Position numbers and translations under genes: made by a program. Below the pieces are notes generated by a model. It was not told where the DNA came from. It saw only the letters and a program-made list of their open reading frames with translations, and ran no database searches. This document shows positions 1,967 through 59,300 of a stretch of 64,000 nucleotides of DNA, piece by piece; within the stretch, counting starts at the first letter, position 1; every line of letters begins with the position of its first letter. Source of the DNA: Saccostrea echinata (lineage: Eukaryota); the NCBI RefSeq assembly GCF_033153115.1, contig NW_026889805.1:8246001-8310000 (forward strand), written 5' to 3'.

Positions 1967-2070
1967 GGGGACTGTATCCTGGCTGTGAATGGCGTGGCCC
2001 CAGAGTCCCTGTATGAAGGAGAACAGCTGATTAAGGATACCTTCAGGACCCTAACACTAACTGTATGGAG
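1928..2070 (+). CDS. shroom: Shroom exon: C-terminal half of PDZ domain (VDLEGKSQGCLYEGDCILAVNGVAPESLYEGEQLIKDTFRTLTLTVWR)
   Basis: tttacag acceptor and AG|gtaagc donor (phase 2). The GD-x-I-x-x-VNG ... L-x-L-x-V-x-R PDZ signature resembles the second PDZ exon of vertebrate Shroom2/3/4. Confidence 0.85.
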
Positions 2071-5000: not shown

Positions 5001-8000
5001 ATTATGCTATTTACATGTATATATTCAAATATTTCATTGTCTTTAAATGAGTTCTTCAGTACTTCTTTTGGCATATATAAATAACTAGAAGTCATAAGTG
5101 TGTGTTTATGGGGTTTTTTTAAAGGTTGTAAGCTCTTATGGAAAATGTTTTTTTTTTTTGTTTATTTGTTTAATGTCCCTTCGAGAATTTTTCACTCATA
5201 TTGAAATGCCCCCACTTGCCAGTGGAGAGCTGCAAATTTATACCTGTATTTGGCACTTACGGCCTTTGAGCAGTGAGGGATTTTTTTCATGCCAGAACCT
5301 ACTGTGACATGGGACTTTGGTTTATACGGTCTCATCCGAAGGACCGGTCTCCACGTATCACAGTGGATTCCTACCCCCAACTAGGAATCAACTCTAGAGC
5401 AAACACTCTAACCACTGCATCATATGGGTGACTTTATGGAAAGAATATGGTTTAAACATATGCATTATTTAACTTGGTCTACTTTCAGTCAACAAGTTGC
5501 ATAAGACTGGAAATTTGTTAATATGGATGTGTCCAAAATCATAGTAGCTAAGTACATGTATCTCTTCATAGAGCTACAGTCTTGAACCGTATGAGCTGCT
5601 ACACAAAGATAACAAGCATTAATTCATAAAGAGTATTCATGTAGCTTAGCAGCTAGTCTATCTGCTACAAACTTGTACACAGCCATGGTTTTGACTCGTG
5701 TGTGTAGCAGCCATATATATTCAAATTTAGATTTAGAAAAATAGCATTAATCTGCCAGCTGTGTTAAAGACCTTTGTTATTTACAACTTAGTCCTTAATA
5801 CGGTCAGTGGAAGGCTGATATTCAAAACTGTTTAGCTTCAGAGAAAAGAGACATGTATTTTAGATAGAACTGCTGTTTTCTTGCCCTACCTTCCTTTCAG
5901 TTTCTCTTTTCATTAAGTCTGGAGATTTTATTGTGTTAGGATCCGTTACTCTAACTGCTTCAGAGCGTCTTTTTAAATGACTGTATGTAGTATGCTCAAA
6001 GTTTCACAACATGGGGCCTATAGAATAATCCTATTTTCTTCACTAATTGTTTCAGGACAATAGATCTACTTTGTCCTAATAAGCTTATCAGTTAAAAAAG
6101 TGCAGGGCCATTGTATGTCTTCATTCAGACTGGGTACACATGTGTCTGTTTGAATGAAAATGAACCGTTGTGTATTGTGTATTTTGTATTTCTTGTAATA
6201 TTAATTCATGCAGTTAGGTGAGACACTTAGGATTATCCAGTTGTTTAGTCCAAAGGAAATATAATTAGATTTTAATTTACAAAACTTGTCATGGATGGTT
6301 ATGGATGGAATTGTTTCCAAAACCTAAACTAATTTTATATTGTAATTTTATTCAACTATGATATGAGGAACATCTGTTTGTTGTCCTATGGAATATACAA
6401 GGAAGTTGATCGCAAAATGCAGGATAAGATTTTTAGCAGTTGGAATACTGATTTGCTCTGCAGTTTATTTCTAAATTTGTAAAATGGAGAGAGGTGCAAA
6501 ACCAGCTCGCATCTTGCTGAGCCCACCCCCTCTAAAGGTTAATTATGATCAGCTTCCAGTGAGTCCTCGAACACGGGCAAGCTGGTCAGGAAAGGCAGAC
6601 AGGTAAGTGTAGTGTTGTTACAATAGTCCCTGACTATCGAAAACTCATCACCGAAGGCAGTGCGTTAGTAACAATTGAAAATCTTAACATCTGGTAAAAT
6701 TGTGGATATTGCATTTTTATAAAAAAAAAAAAAATAATGCACGCATTAAGCTGAAATTTTAAGCAAATGTTTGTTATGCCCCGCCATGAATATGGCCGGG
6801 CATATAGAGTTTGTCATGTCCATCTTCTGTCTGTCCTTCTGTCGCTCTTTGCTTTTAGCTCAGTTCAAAGCTCAGTTTCAAAGAAACTATTCATATGCTG
6901 ATACATACTGATCAGTGCTATTCAACTGCGTCAACATTTTTTGTCCATGACCTTTCATTTGACCTTGACATCACTTTTCTTAAATTAGTGTTTAGCTCAG
7001 TTTTAAATAAACCATTCAGGATAGTGTTATCAAACTTCATACGTTGATACATTCTGATGTTAGCTTTTCAACTGCATCAACATTTTTTTACCTTGACCTT
7101 TCCTTTGATCTTGACCTCATTTTTCTTAAATTCATGTTTAGCTTAGTTTTGAATAAAGCATTCAGTATAGTGTTATCAAATGTCATATGCTGATACATAC
7201 TGATGTAAGCTTTTCAACTGCTTTAACATTTTTTGACCTTGACCTTTCCTTTGACCTTAACATCACTTTTCTTAAATTAGTGATTATCTCAGTTTTAAAT
7301 AAATAATTCAGGATATTTTTTTTATTAAACTTCATACGCTGATACATACTGATGAGAGCTATCAACTGCATCAAAAATGTTTGACCTTGCACTTTCCTGT
7401 GACCTGTATCTCACTTTTCTTTAATTTGCATTTTGCTTAGTTTTAAAGAAACCATTTAAGATGTTTTTATATAAGTTTATGCACTAATATACATAATTTG
7501 GTGAGAATTTGTCATCTATATCCATTTTTTTAGATTTCAATTTTAAAGAAACTTTTCAAGATATTCTCATCAAACTTTATACACTAATACAAAATTTTCA
7601 TGTTGCATTACTATAAATATACACTTGGCATTCAGGTCCTATGGACATATTTGTAGTTTTTTGTATTTAAGTACATTTTCCATAACTTACTAATACAAGT
7701 CTTTAGAAGTTCCCATGAGTGTGTGAGATTGGTTCCTTGACTGTTCATGGAGGAATAAAGGGGAAGTTGAGTGTGTGCATCAGTGAAGTTCTCAGAATAT
7801 TTAAATGGGACTTATCCAACATTTTAAATCAAAGATGAAACATGATGTTGCTTTAGATATTTGAGTGTTTTCATCCAAGGTGATACATATCACCATAATA
7901 TTATTTATTTGAGCATATATCCATTTGAAATTTGCTATATGTATATTGATGAACAATGTACTAAAGGTACTAAGGAGTAGGGGGAAATATTAGGAAATAG

Positions 8001-11000
8001 TGTTGATTATTTTTCACTCTAGACAACTTGTCCACAATTTTACTGGACAACCCTCAAAGAGTTGCTAATTTAATCTGAAAACATTTTTTCCCCCCAGAAT
8101 TGGTTTATCTTTTAACATTTTCATACAATATTATTCAATTTCTCATGCAAACAGCAGACGAACTTTCCAACTAAGCATGTTTTGAACTTGGTTTTGCAGA
8201 TTATGATTGAAATTTGTTTTTTTTAAATGGTTAACTTTATTCAATGTTACTTTTAATGAATGATCAATCTATCAATTATATAGTGGATTGTACCAATTCA
8301 ATTTGATAATCGATAGTAACTTTGATCCAATTTTGCAACACTAGGTAAGTGAAAATGAATGCATAAACATTGTAAGGTTGTCATAGGTTTTGGAATATGG
8401 TTGAACCTTTTTTTGTGTATGGTTTTGAAGTACACTGATTTGTGATATACCAGGATTTGCAGATCAGTGCTCCATTACAACATAGCAACCGCAGCACAAG
8501 GTTGCTGAGAAATCAGTTACCTGTTGTCCATATCTGATACTAATGGATGTCTAGATAAGCACCACCATGTAAAGAAGCCACTTTACAGTGAACATTGTAC
8601 TGATTAACATGCAAGAGAAAATCAGAAAGATTCAAGAAAAAAACTAGGCTAGTCTTAATGCTCTTTTTGAGCTAAGTTGTAGTACAGTTTGAAAAGAGGG
8701 AAAATCGATCTCTTTAAAGAAAGGTGCATTTCAGTGATATGTAAATCAGTTATGATTTCATGATTACCTGTAAATATAATTGAATGTTTAAAGGTGATTT
8801 AAATCAGGATCTTCAATCAGTATGTAGACATTAATATGGCACATGTCAATTCATGTCTCATTATTTTAGAATTTTTAAGGGAATAACTTAATGCTTCTTT
8901 TAAAACTGAAAATGGTTGAATTGTTTCCTTGAGCATCACAGGGCAGTTATCAATGCCAATTGTGGTTACCAAGCAATTTGTCTTTCTACCAAGCAATTTG
9001 TCTTTCTATGGCTAAAATTCTTGAATGACAAAACAAAACTTGCAAAAGTTATGCAATAAATCAATCAAGCAGAAATTCCTAAGTTATTGAGCAATTCTCT
9101 GAATCATTGATGTCTGTTAATGATATATTTTTCTTGAGGAGAACCTTTACAGTTTACTGATGGCTATTGATGTTCTATCAAGGTTCCTTAGCTTATCCTA
9201 AAGTAGTGATGAAGGAAAAGTGTTGCTCAAAGGTGAAGTGCATTTCATTAGTCAGATGTAACACAGTTTTTTTTTTATGGAGCTAGAACTTCTGAATTCT
9301 TCTAGAAAGAAGAAGGTACGGTTTTAGCTTTATTGTGCCCTAAAAATTTAATGTTTTCAAAAAGTTTTGAAACTGGCTTAAATATTAGTTGCGTATATGA
9401 CTGTGATAAATCAGAAAAGAATATGGCATGAAGAAGTACCATTCTGGAAATATGATGTCATTAATTTGATGCATTTCTCTATTTTAAACATAAAGGCCTC
9501 AAAATGACCCATCTTAAGGGTTATTTTCCTTAAGAAAATCACTGTCCACAGCCGTCGCCCACTTTAATTTTCGGATATGTTGTGTAAAATTCTTTGAAAA
9601 ACCACATATCGTAAAATCTTTGTGGGTGATGCCAGTGGACAATATTATCTGAAAGAAAATTCCATTGAGATTTGGTGTCTTCTGCAACTTTTTAAGAAAA
9701 TGCGGGAAAATGCACAACATTATGACATCACAATTAGCATTTAGAAGGTCATGTGAGAGAAATGATTCGTACGATCTTTCTGCATGGAATTTAAATGATT
9801 CAGAAATCATGAGTTTTAATTTTTTACATCACTTTCATTTTTAAGAAAAACACAGGGCAAGATTTGTATTGAAAGTCTGTACCTTGTTCTCATCAATTTC
9901 TCAAGTAAGGAGAGCACAGGCACTTGTTTCTGTAATAAATTTTAGCGACAAAGCCCACAGTTTAATAATAACCAAGGTATCTAACTCCTAATTACATGGA
10001 GTACCCACCTTCCCAGAATGGCAGTCATTTACACTTTCAGAGAAGTGCACTGGCAAACTGTTTATTACCATTGTCCTCTACGATTATTTATCTATACAAC
10101 CATATATGACACGCTTGTCTTCATTTTCTTTTAAATTCATAAACAGCATCAAAACTCTGCTCGCTGACGGGAAATTCATCTCACACCATGAAGTGGTATG
10201 TTCTAATCTCAGTGGAATATGTTCTTAGATTTTGATTGGCTAAAAATGCATTTCTAAAATTACAACAGAAAAATATCATAATGTTTTATGGAAAATAAAA
10301 TGTAAACAAATTTTATTTATTCACTGCAATATTTGCTCATTTTTAGCTCACTTCAACGAAGTTGCGGTAGGTTATGTAATACCGTCGGCGTCAGCGTCCC
10401 AGGTTAAAGTTTTTGGAGCAGTTTCCTTATCAAGTACTTCTATGCCCTATATTAATCAGAGATGCATGGAGGATGCTTCTAGTCCGGTTAAAGTTTTTGG
10501 AGCAGATCTCATTTCAAAGTAACTATAAGCTCTATGTTGACCAAACTTGCATGGATGATACATCTAAGGATGCACACTACTGGACTTGCTTGGGATGCTG
10601 GATCTGACCTACATTTTCCGGATTAGTGACCATGTTAAAGTTTTTGGAACAGATCTCATTTCCAAGTGTCACCCGCATGGCGCAGTGGTTAGAGCGTCTG
10701 CTCTAGAGTCGCGGCGTAAGGAGTTGATCCTTATGTCGCGGGTTCGAATCCCACTGTGGGACATGGAGACCAGTCCTTCGGATGAGACTGTATAAACCAA
10801 GGTCCTGTGTCGCAGTAGGTGCTGGCACGGAAAAGATCCCTCACTGCTCAATGGCCATAAGTGCCGAGTAGAGGACAAAATTTGCAGCTCTCCACCGGCA
10901 AGTGGTGGTGTCTCCATATGAGTGAAAAATTCTCGAGAGGGACGTTAAACAACATACAAACATTTCCAAGTAAATGTAAGTCCTGTTTTGACCAAACTTG

Positions 11001-14000
11001 CAATGATGATACATCTAATGATGGACACTACTGGATTTGCTTCGGATGCTGGATCTGACCTTCATTTTCTGGATGAGTGACCAGGTTAAAGTTTTTGGAG
11101 CAGGTCCAATGCCAAGGAATTGTAAGGCCTAACTGTACCAAACCTGCAAGGATGATGCATCAAGGGATGAACACTCTCAAACTTTCTTCAGATGCTGGAT
11201 TTGACTTACATTTTCTGGATGAGTGACTAGTTTAAAGTTTATAGATAAGTCCATTCCCAAGTAACTGAAGCCTTATCAGACCAAAATTGCATAAATGATG
11301 CACACTACTAGATTATTAGTTGGACTTTGCCTTACTTAAAGACAACAATCGTTGAGGTGAGCTCTGTAATCTCTGAAAACCTATGTTTAAATTTGCTCTC
11401 TCCTCAAGATTAGTACATACCTTTTCATGGTGTGAGTCAAATTTTCCAGGGAGGGCAGTACTCCATGTAATTTGGAGTTAGATACCTTGTGTTATTATTA
11501 TACTATGGGTTAAGAAATTTATTACAGAAACAAGTGCCTGTGAAAGGGATCCTGAATCCAAAGATGACTTTCATGTTCATGAAAATTATCTCCCTTTGTC
11601 AGCATATCAATACAGTAAACTTCTTTTATAACGTACTCGGTTATAAAGTATCTCCGGATGTAAAGTAGCCATTCCGTAGTCCCGGCAACATGTCTATATA
11701 TTTCATTGGAAAAAACACCGCTTACAACGTATTTGTATATAACGTAGTATCGCTTATAAAGTATATAACGTATTCTGACACATGGTTTCACACCTTTTCA
11801 GAGCAATGACTGTGGATTAGTCACGGTTTGTTGACTTTATAGCTTCTCCGTATGGGTGTTTTTCTAACGAGGTTTCTTTGTTGTTTCAGGTAGATGTATA
11901 AATTTATAATAAATTGTTTGAATAAAGTTCATCGAGTAGATGTACTCAAAATTGTTTGAATAAAAATTCATCTTTGAGTAAGTAAATAGCAATATAACCG
12001 AAAATGATTTAATTAAACTTGTGAAAGAAAAATACATTGATTCAATATCAGTAAACAGCGAGGACGACGAGGTCATGCCTGACACGTGCATACTATCTAC
12101 CCAGACGATCAAAGGGCATAAGTCCGAAGTTTTCACGACTCTGGCAACTCTGGAGACTTTTGTAAATAAATGTCATCAGGCCAAACAGACAAACATTACA
12201 GACTTTTTATGTGATCTGACGATCATCAAGATTGTACAGCACTTAATTATACCTGTAAATCATTTATTTACATACTATACATACTTTAAAATATGAATAA
12301 GACACTAGCGGTTTGGAAAGTGCTTATGGTAAAGGTGTACTGTGTACTTCCGGTCTCCGTTTATAACGTACACCGGTTATAACATAGGATTTATCACAGT
12401 CCCCTGAGATACGTTATAAAAGATGTTTACTGTATATCCTTTGTATTTTCTTTTTGTAATTTTTTTTAACACTCTAAAGCACTAGGACAATTTTGTTCCA
12501 TTCCTATATTGGAATAGTATGAGGCAACAAAGAAAATATGAATATACATGCAGATTTCATTTGTCAGACATTGCCTCCTAAAGTTGGTAATACAGTACCT
12601 CAGTGAAGCCAATTGACCCCATATTGACCCCACAAAGAAAAATAACTCTTGTAAATGTGAAAATCTAGCTTCAGCCCGCTTATTTTGTCAATGTTCCATA
12701 GGCTTTGTTTTAATAGTCCTCTAATCATGGTGTCAACATGAGAGGCTTTCTTGAGTTTGGCACGGCATTGAAAAAATCTTAAGAGTTCCCAGAATCTGTT
12801 CGTTTCAATTCTCACAAATTTTAAAAATTTATCATTGCCCAATGCAAACTCTTTGTTCTGTGATTTGCATGGTAGTGTTCCGGACGTCCCCTATACATAT
12901 TGAGTTTAGAAGTATTATAACTCAAGTCTTTTTATGTTGTTACCCTCCTACCCCCTTCAAATCACACAGACACACTAGCTCTCCCATTTTCTCAGATTTA
13001 TAAGTAAAAGAAATGTATTTTCAAATCACATACAGCTGAGAAAGCAATCACTAACATTAATACCTGCATGATAACACCTTATTTTACCAGTCTACTGTCT
13101 TAGTGTCAGTGTAATGGTTTGGGCCATGAATATCAACGTGATTAGCTCAGTCGGTAGAGCACCTGACTATATAGTGATGCAAGTGTCCCAGGTTTGATTC
13201 CCCGGTCCACCCTTACAATTTCTCCTTCTCCTGTTACATAATTTGGTGCCATTGACCACCCCTGGACTTGCAGGTGAAGATAATTTAGATTGTAAGAAGA
13301 ATGTAATGGTTTGGGCTGTGGATATCGGCCTGGGTAGCCTACTCGGTAGAGCATCTGATTAGTGATGCAGGGGTCCCCGATTCCTGGTCCAGCCACTTAT
13401 TTTCTCCTTTCCTGTTACAGCAATACTTCATCAGTCAGCTGCATTCTTACAAGTCCCTGATAATAAATTTTGGTTAATATGTTTTGTTCATCAGAAATAC
13501 TTTTTATTAAATAATAATAGAAACAAAGATATTGCCATACAAAAAGAAAAAGAACTGTAAAAACTGACAGAATTGTATTTTTAAGAACATGCAGACATTG
13601 GAGTTATTTCCCTTTGAACACATTATGGCTAAATACTTAGCTATGTAATAGGAAGATGGTTATCTCTGCATAAAACCTTTGATGTTTATGAGTTGTAGGT
13701 GACATCAATCGTGTCATTTTCTCATATATTTCAGAAAGGGTACAAAGAGTTCAGATTTGCATTGGAATTTTAGTGAGGCATTAATGCAGAAGTGTTTTTC
13801 ATAAACATTAATTCTTGTAGCTTATGTAAATATAAGAAAAGGTGTAGTTATATATATATATATAGTTAATCAAAAGAAATGTTTGCATAAATGGGGTGTA
13901 AGAATTCCAAATATTTCTGAGGGAAGTGTTTCAAATAAAAAATCAATATACATGTTGTTCATTTTATAATGTGTAGGGATGATCCGAGTGTACATCTACA

Positions 14001-23000: not shown

Positions 23001-26000
23001 CTTGTCTGATGCAGCTGTACTTTAACCACAAAGAGAAAAATACCCATAGATTTTTAAGATTCATTAATCAAAATACCAGTGTTATTATTTATTTCATTAT
23101 GGATATGCTCTTTCAGATTTTCCTTAATTGCAAGAATTTCAGTAAGTGATTCAATGTCATTCATATTTCCATTATTTTGTACCTTAGAGGGTCAACAAAC
23201 TTCATCACTTAATTAAGTACATTGTAAGTGTATCTTATATTTGCTCAAATTAATGCCAAGGGATAAAGAAATTAAAAAAAGATAGCAGCACTTGATTACT
23301 AAGTTTTCCTTTGCATTTACTTTGAGGGGGAAATATATTGGGAAAAATGGGGGGGGGGGGGTCAGCATTCATTATGCTCCTTCTTTGAAAAAGTCTGCAT
23401 CTTTGCCTGTACAGTATCTTTATTTTCCAGTAAGATAATTAAAATAGAGATGAAATATTTATTTAAGCTTAACTGAGTATCATCAAGTAGGGAATGTCAA
23501 ATACACCTCAGATAAGATCTGTGCATAAGTGCCTTTTGGATACCACTGAGTAGGGCCTTTTGACTACCACTTGGTGGTGCCTATTTGGTACCATTGAATG
23601 AGGCCTGTCTGATCTCACTCAGTAGGGTCTGCCTGGTACTACTCAGTAGGGCTGTTGAAGAGGGTAAATCCTATGGGACCAACCATTTTTGCATCTGAGT
23701 GTATTGGATTAGTATTGGGGACCGAGGACATGTTGTGTCATACTTTGACACCTGAGCTCCAAACAAAGCTATCTAGATTTGGAGCAATGAAGGACAACAG
23801 CTATATACAGTAGCGTGACATGTAAATGGGTGGCAGGACAATATAAAATTACTCTTGTTAAATAGCTACATCCAAACAACAACAACAAAATACAGAGGAA
23901 AGCGACTTTTATGGTACATTAAATGTAGGAATTAAGGGATATAGTGGGGTCTTCTATTTAGTTTTTAACATTGGTGTGGGATATACTGTTACAGTTTCTT
24001 GTAATTGATACATTTCTGACAAAACTAGGACAAAACTAGGACAACTGACATTGTAATAGCGGGAAGTTTGGGTAGTGAAAGATGAAAGAGTTAGGGTAAA
24101 CCTTGTACAATAATACAATCCAACATGCTAAGCTTGTGAAGGGATGAATAGTTCTTTAAAACAAAATCTGATAAAATCGCATATATTAGGATTTTGCCAA
24201 AGTTTAAGACAGCATTTGTCACTAGGAATATATATATATATTACCACTGATTTGATTTTTAGCAAATGGATTTAAGACTGTTACTTCAATGTTTTGCTGA
24301 CATGACAATGGCAAGAGACATTTGCAGAGAAACTTAAAATTTTAAAGAACTTTGGAGATATTGTAAAACTTGAGATTTATTCCTTGTAAAATGAAGAGGC
24401 AATCCAGTCTGAACTATGTGGATTATATGAAACTTGTCAGGTGAATTGTTATATTTGTTTCGAAAGTTTTTATAATTGCTTTTTCTTCAGAGAAATACAC
24501 AATATAAGTGTAAAAATGTTTCTTTTTGCCTTATTGGGAAAGTTGTCTACCAGACTTTGTTTCTGCCTTATTGAGAAAGTTGTCTATCACACTTAGTGTC
24601 TGCCTTATTGAGAAAGTTGTCTACCACACTTAGTTTCTGCCTTATTGAGAAAGTTGTCTACCACACTTAGTTTCTGCCTTATTGAGAAAGTTGTCTACCA
24701 CACTTAGTTTCTGCCTGATTGAGAAAGTTGTCAACAAGACTTAGTTTCTGCCTTATTGAGAAAGTTGTCTACCAGACTTAGTGGACTGATGTTTCTTTAA
24801 TTTTTAAACAATATTTTATTCACAGATCTAAAAGTGAATAGGATTGTGCAGCAGGCTCAGTCTATTTTAGCCCTCTTCCTAATGATGTTTCCTAACTGAT
24901 GTTTCTTTCTGTCATTTTTGTAAAAGTTGTCTATCAGATTTAGAAGACCGATTTTTTTTCTGTCTTATTGAGAAAGTTGTCTACCAGACTTAGTGGACTG
25001 ATGCAAACTTCAACTGACCAGGGATGGCAAACCAAGAAGAGATTTGGAATACATGGAAAATACTTAAACTTATAAGGAGCTAAAATAAAACTCTTTCTTT
25101 TTCTTTGATTTATCTTTAATAAGAATTCATTCAATTTAGTTACTGGTTAATTTCTCTCTCTGTAATTATGGGACTGTCCATTAAAACATGTCTTTAAAGA
25201 AAATGATGCTTGTGAAAGCTGGAGAGATGGTACTTTATTTCTAACTTGTGTTGCCTTATGACTGGCAGTGCAGACACCAAGTTTAATGTGCAGAGGCATG
25301 CGGTGCAATTGCCATTGTCTAGGAAGCAAACATGGTATTAAATGCAAAGAATGGGAAACTTTGAACAAATAAAAAGCTGCGGTCTATCATACGTTGGCAT
25401 TGCTGATCCCCAGTGTGGGTCCGTCATTAGAAGTTTGTGATCCTTGTGGGCTTAGCTCAATAAGAACCTTTTCACCTCCAATCATGCTGTGATATATAGG
25501 CAGAATGATTCTCAATTTTATAGAAAAATCTTTTCATCATGATCTAACAAAAGCTTATCAATACACTCTGTAACAAGATCTGCATGCATTGTGCATGAGT
25601 TTGTTCATAGACTATCTATAACGTGTATTCCTGTAATCACTAACTTGTTAAGAACCTTGATGTTCCTTAGTATTGCTCCTCTTGTATTAAATTGGTGTCA
25701 ATATTGTTTGTATAAAGTTTCATTTTTATCTTTTCCCCCTTTTCAGTAACCTCAAGTGTTTTTGAAAATATTTCGATAACCCTTCAACAACACCTTCATT
25801 AATAATCTGTGGTTTTATTTCCTCAAACAGGGGGACCTCCAAACTTGAGTCAAGTGTGAAGATTCTTAGGTCTTCTTCATTCCTTCATCGATCACGAGAA
25901 GTCCAGGAACGGGAACGGAACCAGTCTGGGAACCAGGATGACAGCACAAGGACAACAGAAGATCCAAGATCTGCAGAGAAAATGAAGCCAAGGCAACGCA

Positions 26001-29000
26001 GGGTCGAGAGCTTCCAGTATGTAAAACTTTTCAATTTTAAAGAAATCAGTAAAATTTCTGTTTAAACCCATACATGTTGCCCAAATTTAAGTTTGACTAA
26101 AATAGTTACTTTAGCTGATTCTAGTTTAATTAAATCTCAAATCGGTTACTAAGTTGTGTAGACTTAATGATAGAATATTTTACATTTAGTTAACGGTATG
26201 TTAATTTTTGTAATTTAGAAATAATTATAAGTAGTTTAAGAGTGTTGTTTGAATTTAAACTGTACTTTAATGTGACGTGCAAAAAATGATTAATGCCAAT
26301 TTGAGTTATTTACATCATATCATACATCACAGACACGTGTTTTGCTCCTCTGGTTGAAACTTTGTGTATTAGTTTAAATTGAAAATCTTTAAAAGGTTTG
26401 TTTGCTCCATTTTTGCAGTTTGTTCAATGTATTAGTAATTGCTGTAAAATAGATGGCATTAGTGCCCATTTTGGCGCCTGTAGCCTCATAAATTGTGGAC
26501 GTACCCGTGCCGCATACACTTGTGGATCTAGTCCCCTTAGTTCTTCCACAAAGCATTCTTTTTGAGACATTGATAGCCTTTTAACCTTGAATTCTAATTT
26601 ACCCATAATAGCTTGTTATTATATTAGTCAAATATTTTTATGGATGAAAAACTGACAAAAAGATTTAATCAAGTTCCTGTCATGTGCAGTCAAATGCGAA
26701 AAGCCGGCTTTAAGGAATTTCTAAATAATGAAACAGATTTTGAACATGGCCAAGATTTCTGTCCTTGTTGTCAATTATAATGAATATAATTTCTTAACAA
26801 ATATGTCTCAAATCTCTAGTAAAACTATTCTGCATGGACAGAGAATCTATAAGTTTAAATTTTCCTACTTAAAATATTACTGCTCAATAAAATATTACTG
26901 CCCAATAAAATATTACTGCCCGAACATGCTTTTCTTGTTTAACAGAAATAAACAATTTCTACTCAATACTTCTATGTCACCAGTATTAAAGCAAAGTTGG
27001 TAGTTCTAATTATTACAAGGACTGTGCATACAATAATATTGGCCCCAACATTTGTGGTTAAAGCTTCTGTGAATCAGAGATATCTGTTTGGCCTTGTGGG
27101 ATTGCAATGGTAACCTGAGTGTGTTTGATCTTGGGACAGATGACATGATCTGGTAGATATATCCTCGGATGCATGGCTGACCCCATTATATCAGACTATA
27201 ACTACTAAAGCCCACTGCTGTCTGCGGTCTCTGTCAGTGTTCTACTCAGTTCTAAGTTCTGGCTCAGTCACATATACCGAATTTAAACAGTTAAAGCTTA
27301 ATTCACTTAGTTAATCACTGTCAGGTGATCCTAACATTAAAGAAAAATCAAAACAAAAAAAAGAAAACAAAAACATTCACCTGGTTAATTGTCTTGTAAT
27401 AAAATAATAAGTTTATGCGGTTGCTATTTAAGAAGATGTACTGTAACAAGCAAGATAAAGGAACAGCATTGGTAAATAATGAAGCGTGAGACCCTCTAAT
27501 TGGACTTTACGAAATTCTTAATATAAACCATAAAGAAGGCAGCACAAGTCACAATGCCAAATACATTTTATGGCATTGCACCTCTTTGCATCACTGTCTT
27601 GGATAATATTCAAGGAATTTTTATGATGGGTAGATGTTCTTACTGTAATAACATGTGAAAGAGCTGTGAGGTGTCAGTCTAGCAGAATCACAACTCATTA
27701 ATCCATCACCTAGACTGGAATGGAGACAACTTAATATTCTGACATTGGAAGATGTGCATGGGTATCACCAGCTCTCGATTCCTCACTGTGGCAGGTGACA
27801 GGGTGCACCCAGGGCTTGGAATTCTGCTCATGAGGGTTAAGTTTTACCTACAAACAACATGAGTTTGGTGTCGTCTAACCCAGAGACATTGAATGCCACT
27901 GTCTGGAACACTGGCCATTTTCTCGTTCATTACCTGCCTGGCATAAATACTCTTATGTCACTGAGAGCCATGTTGTTTTATTCTGTGACTCTCTACCAAT
28001 AAAAACAAGGAGGACTTCTGATCTGGAAGAAAGTAAACATTCAAATGATGAGGAAGCTAGTAAAATTCAAATGATAAAGACTTATCTGGAAGATACTAAA
28101 CTTTCAAATGACCAAGATTTCTGATCTGGAAGATATTAAAACATTCATATGATCAAGACTTCTGATTTGGAAGATACTAAACTTTCAAATGTAGTGTTGT
28201 GCTCACTTTGATTAAGAATGGGACTTTCAGCCTCAAAACAAAGTAACACTGAGTGTGTGATAGTGGAGTCATGTTCAGTTTTGGAGGAAGACAAAGATTG
28301 TGGTGTAGAGGATCCCTCAGACTCTTCTCATAATGAGTAAGTTTACACCACTGTATTCTACTCCGATTGAGGCTGATTTAAATCAGAAAGGGTGTACATG
28401 GCCGATTTCAATACATCAATAGTTTATGATGGCATATGGCATTGAACAAGTGTCAAAAAAGCTGCTTTGATTTCAAGTTTGATGACTTTTAAGGACCTTT
28501 TTGTTAGAAATAAGAATTCGGTTACTCTGTTACATGTATATCAAAATATATCCAGCCCACTCTGTCCTTGACTCTTGGCTACCAGGCTGTTTGATGGTTC
28601 AACCCCAATGAAGACCATTGAAAGGCAATGTTATAAATGTTGTATGAAATTATTCCATCAGTATACTTTTTAACTTGAACAAATTGAGCAATTCAATGTC
28701 TCATCAACTTTTTTCCACATTTCATATTGATAATTATCAATATATGATAGAGTTTATAAAATATGAGGAAACCTTTATTAAAAATAATCATTTGACCAAA
28801 AGTTAAGGCCATAATTTAAAGGAATTTTTAATAATGATACATATTTATCTTTCAAATAAATTGGCAAAGCAATCAAATTAAATTTCTGTATCTTTGTTAT
28901 TTCATGAAGTATTTATGAAATTCTGATTTATTATGTGGTAAAATGTATTTTTAATTTCTAGAGGCAGTAGGGGGCACATGATTTAAAGGTAAATTTTGGA

Positions 29001-29409: not shown

Positions 29410-29499
<90 letters not shown>

Positions 29500-32273: not shown

Positions 32274-32315
<42 letters not shown>

Positions 32316-35300: not shown

Positions 35301-38300
35301 TCGGATTAATTCGATTCTTTGATGGTAATTGTACAGTTTATGTTATACAATGCCTCCTAATTAAGGTCTTCTTTGATAGGTTTGCATGTTGTGCTTTAAC
35401 GTTTATATGATATGAGGACTTTCTCCATTATAGGTATTACAATGGTTGGCTGGACAATAAAAAAATTCACATACCTTTTCCAAATCCCCCCTGGCAGAAC
35501 ATAAGTGTGTAGATGTGATATGCAGTGTTTATTTGTCAATTTTTGGATTTAAATTTTATGAAAATTGCTTTTTCTGTTAGGTGTTTGAAAGATTTTTGAA
35601 TCTCAGTTGGTGTGGTCTCTGCAGAGAGAGTTGGGCCAACATTTTTTGGCTAGAGTACAGAGTGAAATTGATTAAATATAGCTTAGAATCTGTTTGTATG
35701 TGATTACTTACCTACATGCATTATTGATATTTTATATTTTATTCTGTGCACTATTGATTGGGCTGTTCTGACTCTTTGTGATGCAAGTTAACGAAGAAGG
35801 GAGACCAGGTTCTCCACTCAGGTGAGGCTGATGATCACTCACAGGTGTATATCGTGTGCTTCACGTCATTTCTCATCATGAAGTAAAACATCCATTGTAG
35901 TGAAGAAGGGAACATATTAAATAGGTATGTCTCCCTGAGACTGCATTTCTAAGCTTTTTCATTCAGACCCTGTAGGGATTGTATTTGTTATTGTGTGTTC
36001 CCCTACTGAGCAATTCAGAATATGTGTCAAGAGAGAGACTAATGAAGTCGAGGAATAGTTACAAAAAGGAGTCATTTCACCCCTGATTTGTCTCTTGTCA
36101 CATTTGTCTGGACATTGCTGAGAAGTAATTTGACCTAGTTCATTGGTTGATATAGATTGACACTATGTATGCTACTAAACATTTTATATCAGGCAGTAAA
36201 GAAATAACATCTCTAAAAGATGAGTACAGTATAATGTAATGAAAATGCATTTATGATCTTCAATTTGATCATGACCTGAGTATAAAATAGATTTAATCCA
36301 TACACAATCTTTTTCTTTTGAAGTTATACATGGTATTGGTGCCAGAACCAAATTCAGTACAGGTTGTTTGTGTTTGTATGTGGTTAGATTGTCATTAAAC
36401 CATAAACGGACTGTTCCTCTCAATCCAATGCACTAATGTCTTCCAAGTCATTGTCCAGGGGTAATTAATGATTAGTAATGCATTGATGATGACCTTATTC
36501 ATGTTATTGTTTTACTGCTATTTAATTAAGGTCTGGTAGTGCACAGTCCAGTGTGCCATAGCCTCTTGACAGATGAACATGCATAGTTCTCCCCAAGATT
36601 AGAAGGGGGGCAAATGACCAGTCCATCATTTGTGATATAGACCAAAACCACTGACCAGTGAGAATTTTATGATTGACGTATAGCTGGTAATTGGCAGTTT
36701 GTATAGGTGCTCTGAATAGGAACAATAAAAGTTTCTCCATAAAAACACTACTTCTTCACAGACCGAGTCAGGCCTATACAGGTATCTGTTTAGGTAGAAA
36801 GGATCACTGCTTTGTGGGGAAAGGTCATTTCCCAACCAATTTAATGGTCTGAATGCATTTAGGGCCCACTGCCCTGTATTTGGGTGTCAGCTTTATTTGT
36901 TTTCATGATTACAACTTAATATTGTCACATGCATTCACTATGCAGACACTATGGTGGACACTGTTTACCTTTTGAAACCACCGAGACACAGATTTTTTAT
37001 ATTTTTCTTGAGACAGCTTTTTTACTGTTGCCAGAATGAAGGATTAGATATTGTCTGGTATAGCTGGTGTCTTCTCAGTGGAGAGATTAAAACATAGGAA
37101 ATTTTCTAATCCTTTTTTTCCTTACACACACAGGTAAGAGGATTTGTGCCAGGCACATAATGTAAGGGCAGCTCTTGGCAGAGTGCAGCTGAAAAGTCAG
37201 CTGGTATTCTTTGGGACTGTTTTCACAGTTGCTAAAAGTCAAGTTTTTCTCCCACTACTTGAACTAGCATTAACGGGGCTGGTGAAGGTTTACTTCCGAG
37301 ATTATTTCTTGAATAGGACATTTCTTACTGGACATGTACGCATTGACCAATGTAGGATTGTCCATCCTGGGAAAGTACCAATTAAAACAATTGTATAGAG
37401 TTTGTCTGGTATCATATGGTGAATAAGTACACTGCTTAAGTGTTGTGTTGACCAGTGACTGTTGTATGTATTTTGAACAGTGAATCAAAGGTTAGATGCT
37501 TCTGTGCAATGTGAGTATAATTTTCTTTAGGACAGTTTTTACCTTTTCTTCTGCTGTTTTAAAATGATTAAGGGAACTAGTGGAAAGGTAGCTTGGTGAA
37601 TTTATTTGGAAGAGTTGTTTCTTCTGAAAGCTCTTGATATTCCATGCTACAATAATATCCTGGACCCACCAAAGCTATGTTAATCCCCCTGATACTGCTC
37701 ATTTGAGTTTGATGTATGAGGTATGTAGTTTTAATGATACAGGTGGGTGACAGGGATTTTTATTGACTTTATCTGTATTTGTATAGTGAATGCACTGTGT
37801 GTGTTATCAGAATGACATAACATTAGTGACAGGCAGACAAACAGGCTGTGTGATACCAGGTCCCCATATCTGCTTCATACAACTGAATACTGTCAGGGTT
37901 TAGGGTAACACAAATGGTGTTATGAAATCTTAATTCAATATTTACCTTGTATATCCCAAAGATTGTGTAACGGTCCAAATATTTGTGCCACTGTTCAAGT
38001 TACAAGATATTTGAATGTTAAACCTTTTAAGAAAATTATTACAAGTGAGAAAAATAATTTTTGAGACCTGCGTGTAGGTCACTTGACATTTGAATTAAGT
38101 ACTAAAAACTGGAACATGATTTCTTGTGTATTAGGCAACAAGGAACTGTTAATTTGCATTTCAAAATGGCATGACAATGTGTTTAAGGTGGCATTAAACT
38201 AAGTACATATATTACTTTCTATTTCATTACATGAATCGTGTTTCAGTTTCCTTCTATTTGTGTTAGATTGATGCGTTTTAGCGTGTAATTGGTGGATTGG

Positions 38301-53300: not shown

Positions 53301-56300
53301 ATACACATAGATTTTTTTGACACCCACAAAAATGTGTGGAGATTTATTAATTTAACATAGCTAATGGTCAGTGAAGTTTTTTTTAACACTATGAAAGGAT
53401 GACTCTAACCCAGTATCATAAGTAAGGCTGTTTCTTTTGGGTTGTTTTTATTTGACATTTTAATCACTGAAGGTTGTAACTGCTGTGTACTGTTGATATC
53501 AACACTGTGTGAGATTCTCTTGTACTATTGGCTTGTACTTGTGATCAGTCATTTGTGGTTTGAGGTGTGATTTTGACTCCCACAGTCTCAGGGAGAGGTA
53601 TTTCCCTTACAGTGTCTCTCACAACAAGCTCATCACTCGAGTTACCTAGGCCCCCAGGCTAGCACTGCTGTAGTAGAATGTGAAATAACTTGTCATCTTT
53701 GATGAGTTTGGTGTTGACATTAAACTGATACACAACTGGCCACTGCTGTAGTACCGTACAGCTTAGCTGGACAATTGTCCCTCGTCATCAGACGGCATTC
53801 AGGGCCCGGCCCCAGGAAATGCCTGATTGACGTGCATAACTTGTTTTTGTGCAAAAAATCATGAAAAATGTTACTGCCCTCAAATGGCTGTTTTCCCGTT
53901 CTTAAAATGTTTGTCAAGTGTCTTAAAGTGTCCTCTCCTATGTGTTTGCCTTTCATTTCTATTGTGCAGTTGTTAACAAATGTTGTGCAACCAACATTTA
54001 GTAAATGTTTACTGTTTATAGGTACAAAATTTGTTGAAATGTGAGAATATTTATTTTATGTTATATATAAAATTACTAAAGCTTTTTTCAATTTTTTTTT
54101 CCAGTTCTGGTGGAATTACTAAAAATTCCTTGTACCAAAATGTTGGGTATCGTCCACCTCCACCAGTGCCCCCTGGTGGGGAGGAGGATCAGCCACCCGC
54201 ACTGCCACCTAGGAATTACAGGAGATTCTCAGCAAGCCAATCAGATTCTCTCTTACATCCCAGACCAATTCCTCAACCTTTGTCTAAAGACAGGACATCC
54301 TTTGGATATGATGGCCATTCCAGCGAGTCTCGAGGGAAATGGGACGATGATAACTATGCTGAACAGCTCCGTAAACAGTCAAGACGTCTTTCAGAACAAC
54401 AGCATATGCCTCAGCCAATGATTTACAAAACCACCAAGACATCCATCCAATTCACACAGTCCTACAAACAACAGCATGTGGAGGCTTTGGAAGCCACCTC
54501 TCCGGGTGGCTCCACTTCTTCATCAGACCATTTCTTCTCATCACGTCGCATGTCTGGAGGACACCAGCCCTCCTCACCTAACAGTGCTCCTAGTGTTCCT
54601 CCATTGCCCTCATCAAAATACATGTCATCCTCATCCAGTCCTCAAATCTCACCAAAAGGTGAGGGCTTGTCTAGGTCAGAGCATTATCCAGAGACCAAAC
54701 CATACCATTCTCCAGAGACTAAGGAGAGGCTCAGGGTCGATATTTCTGCAACCAGTCAGAGCTGGCACAGTCGCTCGTCCCCATACAGCCCTGATCCTCC
54801 TCCCCCACCCACTCCACAGAAAGAGGTCAATGTGGAGATGGAGCTGCCCCCTCCCCCTCCAGAACTAGTGGAGAACTCCACAGAACACAAAGATGATAAA
54901 TTAAGGTGAGTTTTTACACTTATTTAACCAAAGAGTTTACAATGGTGCTTTGGGATTAACCAAGACTGATAAAATAAATTGATTCTGCTATTCAGGAAGT
55001 AAAGAAGTTAGGCTAGGATTTTAGGTCTTTAATGTGATTTCTGTTTTAAATGCTTTAATGATAGGCATTAACAAATAAGTTTGAACCTCTTGATAAAGAG
55101 GAAAAAGGTAAGAATGTTAATATGATGAGAAGACTTAGCATTGTCATGTCAGAGGTGTGTTAAGCTGATGAAGCTATTTTTAATTTCACTTAAAGCCAGG
55201 CGCCAGACAAGGACTACGCAGTACAGTAGGATTCATGATCATGTAAAATTCAGTAGTTATAGGGTACATGCTCTAGTAGTCTGTATGAAGATTTATATGT
55301 ATGAATCAATACGCACATAGGATATGGACTGATATACTCAGTACTTTATATGTGAAGTTAGCAACTGCATCCATACAATTAAGATTTCAAATACAGAGGA
55401 TGAACACATGCTTTTTAAAGAAAATACTATAATAAAAAAGGTCTTTAGGATCCTCTTTATCTTTTGAAAAAAAGGGTTTTTTTTTTAAAAAAAAAAAAAA
55501 GAGAGCAATACCATATGCCTTAAACTCCATCCTGCCACTTATTAGACTCCAATGAAGCATAAGGCATTTGTGTTTTACAGCAATTGTCTTCTGATGATGT
55601 TTATACATGATAATGTGATGCTGGTGCCTAGCCTCGGTTTCTTAATGATACTTTTTTGTATTGCAAAAGTTAATCATGTTCATCCCAAACTCTCCTAAGA
55701 GTACCTGACATAAAAAAGAAAATAACTTTAGATAGATGTTACCCATGTGCCTTGGTCAGAGAGGAAAATTTAATTGCTTTCCCTTAATGTATCAACCGTT
55801 CTAGGTTCCTCTGATAATAACCACAAAACTTAGATGGCAAAATAGATAATGCAGGGCCAGGAGTTTTGTCTGGGAGAGGAGCTATGTCTACAGTTGTTTT
55901 ACAATGCTGAAGTGTCTGAATCTTGTCATATTAGATTGCTACTTTGGACATGATGCAAGGTGAAGAGGGGCCGTGCGGTAGAGTTATACACCGCATGTGC
56001 TGTCGATAAATTTGACAAAGACTTTCTGCATTGAACACAGCTGCCCTTTGTTTTGTTTTTTGGCAAGGATGTAGTTTTTTTTTAGTTGTGATAAAGGACA
56101 GGTGTACGAGCTACATGTTGAGAGAATAAAACATCATGGTTACCACACCAGAAGTAATATATAGACTAGTATTTATAATGTTTCTTGTGTTTGGGGAGCC
56201 TAACTTAGAGAGCGTCTTCTGGTAGTGTTCCTGACATTCCAAAGGACAGAGGGGTATGGCTAATTACCCCTTTTAATTAGGACAGAGTGATCTTCTAAAG

Positions 56301-59300
56301 AATTTTCTTCATAGGAAAGTCATGTAAGCTAATCAGTTTGGATGAAACATTTAACACATGTTCCTAGGGCATCTTACCATACTGTGTGGAAATAAACGAG
56401 TCAACTTCTCTTACATTTATCTGGAACATTTTATGATTCATTCAAAAACTTGCATAAAGCTATTATCAAGAAGTGCTAGCCATCTGCATGACTGGAGAAG
56501 AAGCTATTTCCATGGATTTTACACAGTGAAGTTTTTAAAAGACCTTTGAAGATCATTTAGCAATTAATCGGAGGATGTCAGGTCAATTTCTCCTGGTGAG
56601 AGTGTCGGATCATTAATTCTAGGCTTTTATAAGGAATATATATCTCTTTTTGGCTGTGTGTCTCAAGCATACATTGAGAGGAAGAGTTCATTTATCAAGG
56701 ACAAGTTAGATGTGTGTCAATTTGTCTTTTTCTGTGTGAGTAGCAGTTTTTTTTTTTGTTTTGGTTTTTTTTTTTTTCGATTACTGTGATGTTAGTAAGA
56801 GACCTACAGTAACTGCTGTATTATGCCAAGTTTGGGATGATAGAAACATTAAAAGTCCAGGAAATGTCCACCTTAACTGTGTTAATGTGACTAAAATTAG
56901 TGGCTGTGGTAGAAGTTTGGTATCCATGGGAGATTTTTATGAGCTGTTTATGGACTTGATCACTGAATCATTACTGGATCTCCCCCTGGGTAACTTTGGT
57001 ATGTGTGTTTATGTAGAGGTCACAGGTCACAAACTGACTGTGTTAAACGCACCCCTGGGAAGCCATGTAAAGAAGAATGACCAACAAAATAGTGAGGGAA
57101 TGGAATCTCTTTTAGAATTTCCCATTGCAGAACATATGGATTATTAGGGAGATAAGGGGATTAAAGGAGTTCTATACATGATACTGTGTGTGAATTGCAT
57201 TCACTAATGACAGTGAAGGCTGAGTATTATGCCTGTTGATTTTATATATCGCTGTGTTCTATATGTTGATGATCATTTGAGAGTTAGGTAAAATCCTAGT
57301 TATGTACAGATACCAGCGGTGGGGATTCAAGTAAGTGAAATCCATTATCAGGAGAAATTTCCCATACATTTAAAGCATTTTTGACACTTACATAATTACA
57401 GATGACTGCACAAAGAATTTTTAATGCTGTAAGAAAGTTTGTTTTCTTTTAAATCTCTCTTGGAAATATTTAACTTTTAGGTAGCAGAAACTGTTCATTA
57501 TGTAATTGCATTAAATTTAGCCCTCTAGGCTGTTAAATAAAAAAAAATTAAAAAAAAAAAAAAACAAACAAAAAACAAAAATGTGTAAATGTCATATTTA
57601 CTTTATCTTAGCATCTCTGTTAGGAAACATTTAGATAGCTTCTAGCCAGTGAATGTTAGGATTTTTCACACCTGCCATTAGGTGGTGGATATGGAGTATT
57701 GCACATAACTGTCACTTTTAATACATGCAGTTGCACTAAATCAGACAGTAGACTGCTATTTCTGGTGATTAACCTGGTGAACGTGTATTTGTTTACAACT
57801 GATATAGTGATGGATGATGGGAATTTTGATTCATACTGATATATGTTTATATCAACCTGAATTGAGATCCTATAGTCAGTGACAAATGCATGATGAGCGG
57901 TGAAGCATTACCTAATTGTGTGAATTTATATTCCAGATATGCAGAAGATTCCTTCGCATCATACAAGAGTCGAAATGATCGGCAGCCAGGAGTGTACAAA
58001 AGATCAGCTTCCTCTGGAGATGCTCTAAAACTTTTACATGAAAATAACAACTACAAGCAGCAAGGGGATATTCAAAAACCTCCTAGAAAAAGACTACAAC
58101 CCTGGAAGAGTGAGCAGACGGTCAATCAGGGTGATCAGATTCCGGAGCAGACGGAGGTTCCTTATAAAGACCCTGTCCTATCTGAACGACCACCGAGACC
58201 GTTAGTCTCCTCCCACAGTTCTAGTCATTTACTGGCACCCAAACCTTACACTGCTCCAGAATCGAACAGAAGTAATAGTTTCAATGTGACATCTTCTGAT
58301 CAAGACTCTGTGACTGGTCATCCCTCCGAGAGACAGTCTGTCCAAGATAGAATTTCATCCATTGAAAGGAAACAGAGTCTATCCAGGGAGAGACCTGAAA
58401 TTAGACAAGTAACACCTCAAGGTCCCTCTCACAAGAGGCAGTTGGAAAACCTGTCAAAGTCATTCACATCAACACCTCCTAGGAAGGCATTTGAAACAGA
58501 CAAATTCAGTGCAAGTGTGAGTGAAAATCTGTTGGGACAAAAGTCTAGTGTAAAATCTCCAGATTCTAGTACTCCTAGCAGGAGGACCTACTCTCCGGAC
58601 CAAAGTGCTTCTGTTTCTACCAGTGATGCAGGCCCACCACCAGTGGACAGGAGTCCCGGGAGTGGGTACCCAGGGGGGCGCAAAATGAAAAATAAGGAAT
58701 CTAATGGGCAGAGTGCAAATGACTCCAATAGCTCCAATACCAAAATGTCTTTCAATGATTCCATTAGGCAATCTCCAAGCCAGTCCAATTCAAAAGAAAC
58801 ATCTAGTCCTCCAAAAAAGAACAGTGATAGTGACTTGGTACACCATAGTAGGCAGCGCTCTCAAGAAGAATTAGAGTGTGATGCCAAAGTGAAGGAATTT
58901 GCCCAGATTTATGAAGACAAGGATCCCAAACTGTCCAGCATGCTGAAGAATGACAGTGGTAGAATGCAGTACATGGATGGACTTTTTCAGACTGAGATTG
59001 ATCATGATTTACTTGCTCGGCGATCTCCAAAAACTTCCCCCAAGTCTTCCAGTGTGGGTAAAGATCAAGAGGCACTGAGGAGTGTAACACCTAGCAAGGA
59101 AGAGAAAACAGAAGAGTAAGTTGAATACTTGAGGAAATTTATTTGTAATTTAAATTTGTCTTTTTTTCTTAAACAAATCTAGAAATACACTCTGTAAAGC
59201 ATGCAAGTTCCTGTTTGAAATATAAGTGAAGTATATATACGTTTTCAAAGAAATGAGTTGGCATTTAGTATATGATATAATTGAATAATTTTCAATTGTA

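What the first reader, a model, noticed from the sequence alone, without database searches (positions are those of the whole stretch)
6484..57330. Battery of phase-2 alternative first exons: a modular N-terminus system for Shroom
Seen: seven intronic segments run open from an ATG to a good GT donor ending in phase 2 (6484-6602, 18549-18622, 28218-28336, 35781-35821, 48982-49058, 51297-51343, 57302-57330). The acceptors downstream of them (25831, 42247, 54105, 57937) are all phase 2. Inference: one gene could yield a ladder of isoforms (PDZ-long, PDZ-less, myristoylated, short ASD2-only) that share the C-terminal kinase-recruiting domain but differ in targeting. Established: Drosophila Shroom has long and short isoforms with different localisation, and vertebrates have several paralogues. 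Caveat: some candidates are expected by chance. Most other strong donors I traced hit a stop before any ATG, but one near a transposon (15699-15724) also passed.
Basis: partly seen in the sequence, partly recalled or inferred. Interest (0 to 1): 0.75.

Follow-up and report, generated by a model that had tools for sequence, protein, structure and literature searches.

The report
Ancient start-exon ladder in oyster Shroom
This oyster's Shroom gene, a cell-shape regulator, holds small start-codon segments in its introns, five of which match the starts of annotated Shroom isoforms in other molluscs, so it likely makes a ladder of long to short proteins that keep the same kinase-binding tail and are predicted to work at different places in the cell.

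Summary
All seven segments and four phase-2 acceptors are at the stated places, in the genome's only ASD2-bearing Shroom gene. Chance gives about six such segments; twelve are present. Four of the seven match N-termini of annotated isoforms in other molluscs, joined to the same downstream exon: 6484 (Ostrea, 90%), 28218 (another Saccostrea), 48982 (mussel, scallop) and 57302 (mussel, unionid clam, snails, Octopus). 18549, 35781 and 51297 have no outside match and remain likely but unproven. The result is four or five tiers, about 2,300 to 630 residues, all keeping ASD2. The shortest tier starts between the same two landmarks as fly ShroomB, so that switch may be as old as protostomes. Promoters, junctions of the seven in this species, myristoylation and targeting are untested. 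Alternative starts in Shroom are known from fly and human; the scan noted a similar case in a sea squirt. Verdict: real, a rich variant of a known kind.

The parts
1928..2070 (+). Second PDZ exon of the full-length form; ends in phase 2. The first PDZ exon lies about 3 kb before the window (L005:6971-7150)
6484..6602 (+). Alternative first coding exon, 39 codons, joins 25831; well supported
   Evidence: 90% identical over 40 aa to the start of Ostrea edulis isoform X2 (P0025); top score 186, next 29, among 1545 peptides; weaker R-x-R-x-S-W match in snail P0102 and clam P0077
18549..18622 (+). Candidate first coding exon, 24 codons, would join 25831; unproven
   Evidence: strong donor, single copy, passes a post hoc GC filter; no leader match; a contig of run X6 covers 18509-18809 and runs through the donor unspliced
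24391..24440 (+).
   Evidence: junction-anchored match to Mytilus californianus isoform X3 (P0060): score 35, 0 of 1544 other peptides as high, next 24
25831..26016 (+). Shared exon E3, 186 nt, phase 2-2; conserved, holds an in-frame Met used as start in several relatives' isoforms
28218..28336 (+). Alternative first coding exon, 39 codons, Gly2/Ser6 myristoylation-type start, joins 42247; well supported as an exon, lipid modification predicted
   Evidence: 72% identical over 43 aa to the start of Saccostrea cucullata isoform X2 (P0022); top score 142, next 28, among 929; a Mytilus isoform (P0063) has a Gly2/Ser6 start at the same junction but no significant sequence match
35781..35821 (+). 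Candidate first coding exon, 13 codons, would join 42247; unproven
   Evidence: strong donor, no in-frame upstream acceptor, passes the post hoc GC filter; no leader match
42247..42652 (+). Shared exon E4 (phase 2 in, phase 0 out)
   Evidence: E3-E4 and E4-E5 joins in run X1
42901..46194 (+). Large shared exon E5, about 1,100 codons, with many short blocks conserved in molluscs
46723..46775 (+). Small shared exon E6 (phase 0 in, phase 2 out)
   Evidence: joins in X1 and X5
48982..49058 (+). Alternative first coding exon, 25 codons, M-E-Y/F-P start and Trp before the junction, joins 54105; supported
   Evidence: top local score to Mytilus P0046 (49, next 31) and Mizuhopecten P0039 (32, next 26) among 473; M-E-Y start also in Potamilus P0089; junction-anchored ungapped score not significant
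51297..51343 (+). Candidate first coding exon, 15 codons, would join 54105; unproven
   Evidence: passes the post hoc GC filter; no leader match
53970..54021 (+).
   Evidence: GT..AG joint in contigs of X2 (36 letters on the short side) and X4 (20 letters, under the tool's 31-letter rule), 2 of 4 runs, one study; sequence
54105..54905 (+). Shared exon E7, 801 nt, phase 2-2; proline-rich motifs, with the only LPPPP (residue 1667 of P0023) near its end
57302..57330 (+). Alternative first coding exon, 9 codons, Y-x-x-Q/K-R-W-G motif, joins 57937; best conserved, counterpart of the fly ShroomB position
   Evidence: junction-anchored scores 39, 39, 36, 28 to Mytilus P0051, Potamilus P0092, Biomphalaria P0099, Octopus P0175; 0 of 205 other peptides as high in each test
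57937..59115 (+). Shared exon E8; begins with an S-Y...G-x-Y-K-R-S motif found in molluscs, a nemertean and insects; ASD2 begins near its end
59791..61157 (+). Last four exons (59791-59929, 60036-60137, 60597-60770, 60897-61157): most of ASD2 and the stop codon

Best explanation
The oyster's single Shroom gene has short ATG-to-donor segments in four phase-2 introns, five of which match annotated isoform starts in other molluscs, so they are likely first coding exons of internal promoters that give a ladder of shorter proteins, all keeping the ASD2 tail and predicted to bring Rho kinase to different places in the cell. Tiers, with lengths computed from P0023: PDZ form 2,304 aa; joined at 25831 about 2,214-2,237 aa (no PDZ); joined at 42247 about 2,150-2,175 aa (no PDZ, no E3; the 28218 leader is predicted to be myristoylated); joined at 54105 about 890-910 aa (no E5, keeps the proline-rich sites); joined at 57937 about 627 aa (loses the LPPPP site, like fly ShroomB). 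Shown here: the segments, frames, domain order, the leader matches, and one new junction in RNA contigs. Inferred: that each leader has its own promoter, that the leaders are used in this species, and that the tiers differ in location. Established in other animals: ASD2/SD2 binds Rho kinase and is enough for apical constriction once localised (PMC3364177, passages).
For: Leader matches at the same junction in relatives' annotated isoforms. The 57302 leader keeps its motif in bivalves, gastropods and Octopus, which a mere start-codon stub would not need. The same ladder is annotated in other lineages: Mytilus species show at least 13 different non-PDZ leaders on the same four exons, and the nemertean Tubulanus three on the exon after PDZ. 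Phase-2 excess of 12 against about 6; with a post hoc filter (donor >=5, length >=40, GC >=0.45) 5 in phase 2, 0 and 0 in the other + phases, 0/1/0 on the - strand. An X1 contig begins exactly at the AG before 25831, as expected where different upstream sequences merge (weak). An extra exon joins 54105 in X2 and X4. In-frame stops lie 2-21 codons before each of the seven ATGs and 6484, 35781 and 57302 have no in-frame upstream acceptor.
Against: The support for the leaders comes from other species' gene models, whose read support I did not see. Three of seven match nothing, and after removing the five matched segments the remaining seven are about what chance gives (5.8). Scores in the 30s are also reached by chance pairs (35 and 38), so the snail and clam matches to 6484 and the scallop match to 48982 are weak alone, and they fail the junction-anchored test. 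Most of the 30 leaders tested have no counterpart in the window, so many leaders turn over. In Mya isoform X1 the 6484-like peptide lies inside the protein after PDZ (P0077), so such an exon can be internal. The only contig seen over 18549 is unspliced. The GC filter was chosen after seeing the candidates.
Confidence: 0.82

Rival explanations
1. The ladder is real, but it serves to control when and where Shroom is transcribed; the leaders are mostly start-codon stubs and the proteins differ only by what they lose downstream.
For: Most leaders are short and differ between lineages. Several relatives' isoforms start at the Met inside E3 or E4 with no coding leader at all. In human SHROOM3 two of three start sites give the same short protein (PMC10722951, passages).
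Against: The 57302, 48982 and 6484 leaders keep specific residues across distant molluscs, and a Gly2/Ser6 start sits at the E4 junction in both oyster and mussel.
Confidence: 0.35
2. Only the four or five matched leaders are exons; 18549, 35781 and 51297 are chance ATG-donor pairs in intron DNA.
For: No match among 30 leaders; residual count of 7 against 5.8 expected.
Against: All three are GC-rich with good donors, a class with at most one member in each of the five control strand-phase classes and a Markov mean of 0.075 (post hoc); relatives carry several lineage-specific leaders per junction.
Confidence: 0.35
3. The segments are not true first exons but second exons behind non-coding first exons, or internal cassette exons.
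For: 6484-like sequence is internal in Mya X1; 53970-54021 has a strong acceptor; strong donors without ATG lie in the same introns.
Against: In-frame stops just upstream rule out in-frame cassette use for 6484, 35781 and 57302; relatives' models start at these ATGs. A non-coding exon in front would not change the proteins.
Confidence: 0.2
4. The whole set is chance or annotation noise.
For: Chance alone gives about six such segments.
Against: Scores of 186 and 142 against next-best 29 and 28, and 0 of 205 for four separate 57302 tests, always on the right strand, phase and junction.
Confidence: 0.03

Closest known systems
Drosophila ShroomA / ShroomB
   Same: One gene, long and short forms sharing SD2. 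ShroomB keeps SD2 and lacks the actin and LPPPP (EVH1) sites (PMC7875558, passages). A primer used against both A and B encodes A-S-Y-L-P-R-Q (PMC3926966, passages), which is the insect form of the motif at the start of oyster E8. So ShroomB and the oyster 57302 form both begin after LPPPP and before this motif.
   Different: The oyster gene has a PDZ exon pair and four internal tiers rather than one. I had no fly ShroomB sequence, so homology of the first exons themselves is untested. Different localisation of A and B is recalled from Bolinger 2010, which was not held.
Human SHROOM3 alternative transcription starts
   Same: Three start sites, a long form with PDZ and a short form without, ASD2 essential (PMC10722951, passages).
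   Different: Human starts remove only PDZ; the oyster tiers remove up to about 73% of the protein and add distinct coding leaders. No ASD1 is detected in the oyster protein, and vertebrates have several paralogues (recalled).
Alternative first exons that create N-terminal proteoforms (general class; plectin-type first-exon sets, recalled)
   Same: Short, unrelated coding first exons spliced onto shared exons, some adding a lipid-anchor signal (review PMC13082882, search listing only).
   Different: Here leaders enter at four successive acceptors of one phase, so they set length as well as the tip of the protein.
Clustered protocadherin and UGT1A variable first-exon arrays (recalled)
   Same: Several first exons share constant 3' exons.
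   Different: Those first exons are large tandem paralogues on one acceptor; these are 5-39 codons, unrelated to each other and use four acceptors.

Membership tests
Shroom family | C-terminal ASD2/SD2 domain | tested here: met
   PF08687 at 2011-2299 of P0023, E 4.5e-54; the only locus in G000, two exon hits over the cut-off
Shroom family | N-terminal PDZ (long forms) | tested here: met
   PF00595 at 34-105 of P0023, 24.2 bits against cut-off 23.2
Shroom family | Central ASD1 (vertebrate Shroom1-3; not universal) | tested here: not met
   No ASD1 hit at E <= 0.05 in 7 of 7 proteins, including the insect-clade P0226; none in four exon translations. This excludes filing it as a vertebrate-type Shroom3, not as a Shroom
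Shroom family | Binds Rho kinase and drives apical constriction | not testable with these tools
   Shown for fly and mouse SD2 (PMC3364177, passages); inferred for the oyster
Alternative first coding exons | ATG, open frame and donor phase matching the next acceptor | tested here: met
   7 of 7, plus 24391 and 54005
Alternative first coding exons | Homologous leader at the same junction in relatives: 6484, 24391, 28218, 48982, 57302 | tested here: met
Alternative first coding exons | Homologous leader at the same junction in relatives: 18549, 35781, 51297 | tested here: not met
   No top-ranked match among 30 leaders; no other oyster genome DNA was available, so lineage-specific exons would also fail
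Alternative first coding exons | Spliced junction in RNA of this species | tested here: inconclusive
   Seen only for 54021-54105; contigs show presence, not absence; 28218 and 57302 lay outside both laid stretches
Alternative first coding exons | Own capped transcription start | not testable with these tools
   Only assembled contigs were offered
ShroomB-type short isoform | Keeps SD2, lacks LPPPP, includes the S-Y...G-x-Y-K motif | tested here: met
   LPPPP at 1667, junction at 1687/1688, motif from about 1692 in P0023; in insect-clade P0254 and P0226 LPPPP at 884-909 and the motif at 1158 and 1081
ShroomB-type short isoform | First exon and splice position homologous to fly ShroomB | not tested
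   No fly ShroomB sequence or gene model was in hand; short arthropod-clade proteins with a distinct start at this motif exist (P0159, P0239) but are unnamed and may be partial
N-myristoylated proteins | Gly at position 2 with Ser at 6 (consensus recalled) | tested here: met
   28218 leader, P0022 and Mytilus P0063; 51297 has Gly2 but Glu at 6
N-myristoylated proteins | The lipid is actually attached | not testable with these tools
   needs labelling or mass spectrometry
Protocadherin/UGT1A-type arrays | Tandem paralogous first exons on one constant acceptor | tested here: not met
   No leader lies in a self-similar interval; four acceptors are used

The most novel reading that the evidence does not exclude
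The short Shroom of flies (ShroomB) and the oyster 57302 form descend from one internal promoter that predates the split of molluscs and insects, and molluscs extended this into a four-tier ladder whose tiny conserved leaders (R-W-G, M-E-Y-P, R-x-R-x-S-W, a myristoyl start) are address tags, letting one gene do the work of several vertebrate paralogues. The nine-residue leader plus the motif behind it would be an undescribed targeting module.
Probability: 0.4. Interest if true: 0.6.

Novelty: new variant of a known kind. Interest (0 to 1): 0.45.

Why it matters
Shroom decides where cells contract, and where it sits depends on its N-terminal part. A map of natural N-termini that molluscs have kept for several hundred million years (dates recalled) names short motifs to test as targeting signals, suggests an age for the fly long/short switch, and adds a likely lipid-anchored Shroom. 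It also corrects the annotation: this genome's public model lists one isoform (P0023). My paper searches for Shroom with mollusc, oyster and myristoylation listed no paper on this, judged from titles and abstract openings; subscription journals are not covered.

Tried and rejected
RNA: no listed holder is on record as RNA, though GT..AG joints across introns show spliced material in X1, X2, X4 and X5. (6300-26299, likeness 85) was swamped by repeats; its tables were cut (777 joints and 22,436 pieces not shown), so it says nothing on joints from 6602, 18622 or 24440; depth near 24391 can come from the repeat at 24519-24791. One search had no contig cover on 35781, 48982 or 51297 in 4 of 4 runs (3 samples, 2 studies); this is no evidence of absence. 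The depth step in X1 at 45513/45515 (15.6 to 182.6) was considered as a start inside E5 and set aside: it looks like a break at a variant, and contig depth is flat. 15699-15724 rejected as likely chance: no leader match, GC 0.35, donor abuts a high-copy repeat. 18263-18330 lies inside a repeat. 4792 and 15543 have no match. Two scans of metagenome contigs found no relative's DNA, so codon-level conservation in other oyster genomes could not be tested. The 'longer' protein search with E8 found nothing. The actin-binding SFM motif (V-x-x-L-x-x-x-F-E; PMC13364712, section 6 and passages) has no exact match in P0023; one loose match lies in E8, and that paper reports no motif-positive orthologues in Mollusca. 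No counterpart of the relatives' small cassette between E6 and E7 was found. Bolinger 2010 was not held. No structure or complex prediction was run. No supplementary files were read.
Full report
Gene. The window is G000:C56:8246001-8310000. A search with ASD2 (PF08687) finds only this locus, as two exon hits. A public protein labelled Saccostrea echinata Shroom3-like (P0023, 2,304 aa) matches the large exons at 98-100% and carries PDZ at 34-105 and ASD2 at 2011-2299, with no ASD1. Its exons are: PDZ exon 1 about 3 kb before the window, PDZ exon 2 at 1928-2070, E3 25831-26016, E4 42247-42652, E5 42901-46194, E6 46723-46775, E7 54105-54905, E8 57937-59115 and four ASD2 exons to the stop at 61157 (several borders that I guessed were one to three bases off and are corrected here from the printed sequence and the joints). 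The introns before E3, E4, E7 and E8 are phase 2.

Observation. All seven segments are as described. To ask what chance gives, I counted ATG-open segments of at least 26 nt before a donor scoring >=4.5 in a rough matrix of my own, or reading GTAAGT, in those four introns: 12 in phase 2, 6 in phase 0, 5 in phase 1; 7, 8 and 4 on the other strand; mean 5.8 and maximum 12 in 100 Markov simulations. At score >=6 the count is 9 against a mean of 3.5. So about half of such segments are chance, and the pattern alone cannot say which.

Relatives. Protein searches and cluster look-ups gave annotated isoforms from oysters, mussels, scallops, clams, snails, Octopus and a nemertean. I cut 30 non-PDZ leaders at the shared exon and scored each against every ATG-to-GT peptide of the matching intron, both strands and all phases (1545, 929, 473 and 206 peptides). 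Top hits on the + strand at a candidate ATG: 6484 with Ostrea X2 (186, next 29), Biomphalaria X2 (37, next 29) and an internal stretch of Mya X1 (33, next 26); 24391 with Mytilus X3 (35, next 25); 28218 with S. cucullata X2 (142, next 28); 48982 with Mytilus (49, next 31) and Mizuhopecten (32, next 26); 57302 with Mytilus, Potamilus and Biomphalaria (40, 39, 36; next 22, 18, 26). Chance pairs reached 35 and 38, so scores in the 30s are weak alone. A junction-anchored ungapped test (13 pairs) was passed outright by 6484 with Ostrea, 24391 with Mytilus (0 of 1544 as high) and 57302 with four leaders including Octopus (0 of 205 each); 28218 with S. cucullata had 2 of 928 as high; the snail and clam pairs for 6484, both pairs for 48982, the Mytilus pair for 28218 and the pair for 51297 failed it. 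18549, 35781, 51297 and 15699 matched nothing. These isoforms are database gene models; I did not see their read support.

The three open cases. A filter chosen after the fact (donor >=5, length >=40, GC >=0.45) keeps 6484, 18549, 35781, 48982 and 51297 and only one segment in the five control classes; the Markov mean is 0.075, but that model ignores regional GC. 18400-18900 is single copy, and a contig of the more distant run X6 covers 18509-18809 with 19 differences and 24 gap letters, unspliced. I put each at roughly 55-65% (judgement).

RNA. Seven runs were listed, all as assembled contigs. One search shows the joins E3-E4, E4-E5, E5-E6, E6-E7 and E7-E8 in at least one run each, and a new GT..AG joint from 54021 to 54105 in X2 (36 letters on the short side) and X4 (20). 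An ATG at 54005 gives a five-residue leader in phase 2 in a poor context, directly after two stops; a strong acceptor at 53970 would instead make a 52-nt internal exon that stops the upstream frame. An X1 contig begins at the AG before E3, which fits a merge of different upstream sequences but does not name them.

How it likely works. Internal promoters (inferred) start transcripts in four introns; each first exon supplies a Met and a short leader and splices in phase 2 to the next shared exon (frame shown; use in this species inferred from relatives). Each tier drops conserved blocks: PDZ; then E3 (44% mean identity to 11 non-oyster molluscs); then the motifs of E5; then the proline-rich motifs of E7 with the only LPPPP. 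All keep ASD2, which in fly and mouse binds Rho kinase and drives constriction once localised (PMC3364177, passages). The 28218 leader has Gly2 and Ser6, and so has a Mytilus leader at the same junction without significant sequence similarity; myristoylation is a prediction from a recalled consensus. The same ladder appears in other lineages: at least 13 non-PDZ leaders on the same four exons across Mytilus species, three in Tubulanus. None of the matched leaders appears on a different acceptor, so the common phase permits mixing but does not show it.

Link to fly ShroomB. E8 opens with an S-Y...G-x-Y-K-R-S motif found in molluscs, Tubulanus, the insect Timema and unnamed proteins that group with it in an ASD2 tree (38 rows chosen by me from the hits). 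Two of those, P0226 and P0254, carry A-S-Y-L-P-R-Q there; P0226 is closest to the solved Shroom SD2 chain 3thf (that it is the fly protein is recalled), and P0254 has the two proline motifs that PMC7875558 gives for fly ShroomA. A primer used to target both fly isoforms encodes A-S-Y-L-P-R-Q (PMC3926966, passages), and ShroomB lacks the LPPPP sites (PMC7875558, passages). ShroomB therefore starts after LPPPP and before or at this motif, as the oyster 57302 form does. The interval in flies is 170-250 residues, so a shared splice position is plausible but not shown.

Known and new. Alternative starts are known for fly Shroom and human SHROOM3 (three start sites, long and PDZ-less forms; PMC10722951, passages), and the relatives' isoforms are already in public annotation. 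An unreviewed note of this scan describes a sea-squirt Shroom with alternative N-termini (e1-9599157; not tested here, not counted as support). Searches for Shroom with mollusc, oyster or myristoylation listed nothing on this ladder (listings only). What is new is the four-tier layout, the depth of conservation of a nine-codon first exon, a likely myristoylated form and the possible homology with ShroomB. Papers seen: PMC7875558, PMC10722951, PMC3926966, PMC3364177 (passages); PMC13364712 (passages and section 6); PMC13082882 (listing); Bolinger 2010 (citation only). No supplements were read; they may hold isoform maps that bear on the ShroomB comparison.

Verdict. Observation confirmed; interpretation right in its core, unproven for three segments and for targeting. 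New variant of a known kind; interest 0.45.

Noticed in passing
window 1765-1966: The acceptor and first 40 nt of the second PDZ exon are tandemly repeated (period about 56 nt). The public model P0023 uses the copy at 1872 and resumes in the next copy, which implies a 56-nt intron or a duplication that differs between haplotypes.
   Followed up: partly
window 25831-26016 and 42247-42652: Isoforms of mussels, clams and snails start at the conserved Met of the M-K-P-R-Q-R-R block in E3 or at a Met in E4, which suggests non-coding first exons. Strong donors without a phase-2 ATG lie at 2375, 8344, 11356, 30540, 33388, 37133 and 49086.
   Followed up: no
window 46830-46893: A good acceptor 55 nt after E6 opens 20 in-frame codons and a stop: a possible alternative last exon that would give an ASD2-less protein. 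No support found.
   Followed up: partly
window 58340-58366: Loose match to the short actin-filament-binding motif (Val at P1, Glu at P9, but Arg at P4 and Ile at P8) inside E8, kept by every tier.
   Followed up: partly
window 38860-40690: A high-copy element of about 1,037 bp (39314-40350, 90-95% identical copies on many contigs) sits inside another repeat; an X2 contig skips it.
   Followed up: partly
window 28010-28191: Short degenerate tandem repeats (about 35-40 nt) end just before the 28218 ATG, in its likely 5' UTR or promoter.
   Followed up: no
P0037, P0033, P0035, P0050, P0064: Scallops and mussels have an optional basic, proline-rich insert of 14-23 residues between E6 and E7; none found in the window.
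   Followed up: partly
window 62336-63546: Tandem repeat array downstream of the last exon.
   Followed up: no
P0068, P0075; P0109, P0280: Dreissena and Babylonia each have Shroom models at two loci, unlike the single locus here.
   Followed up: no
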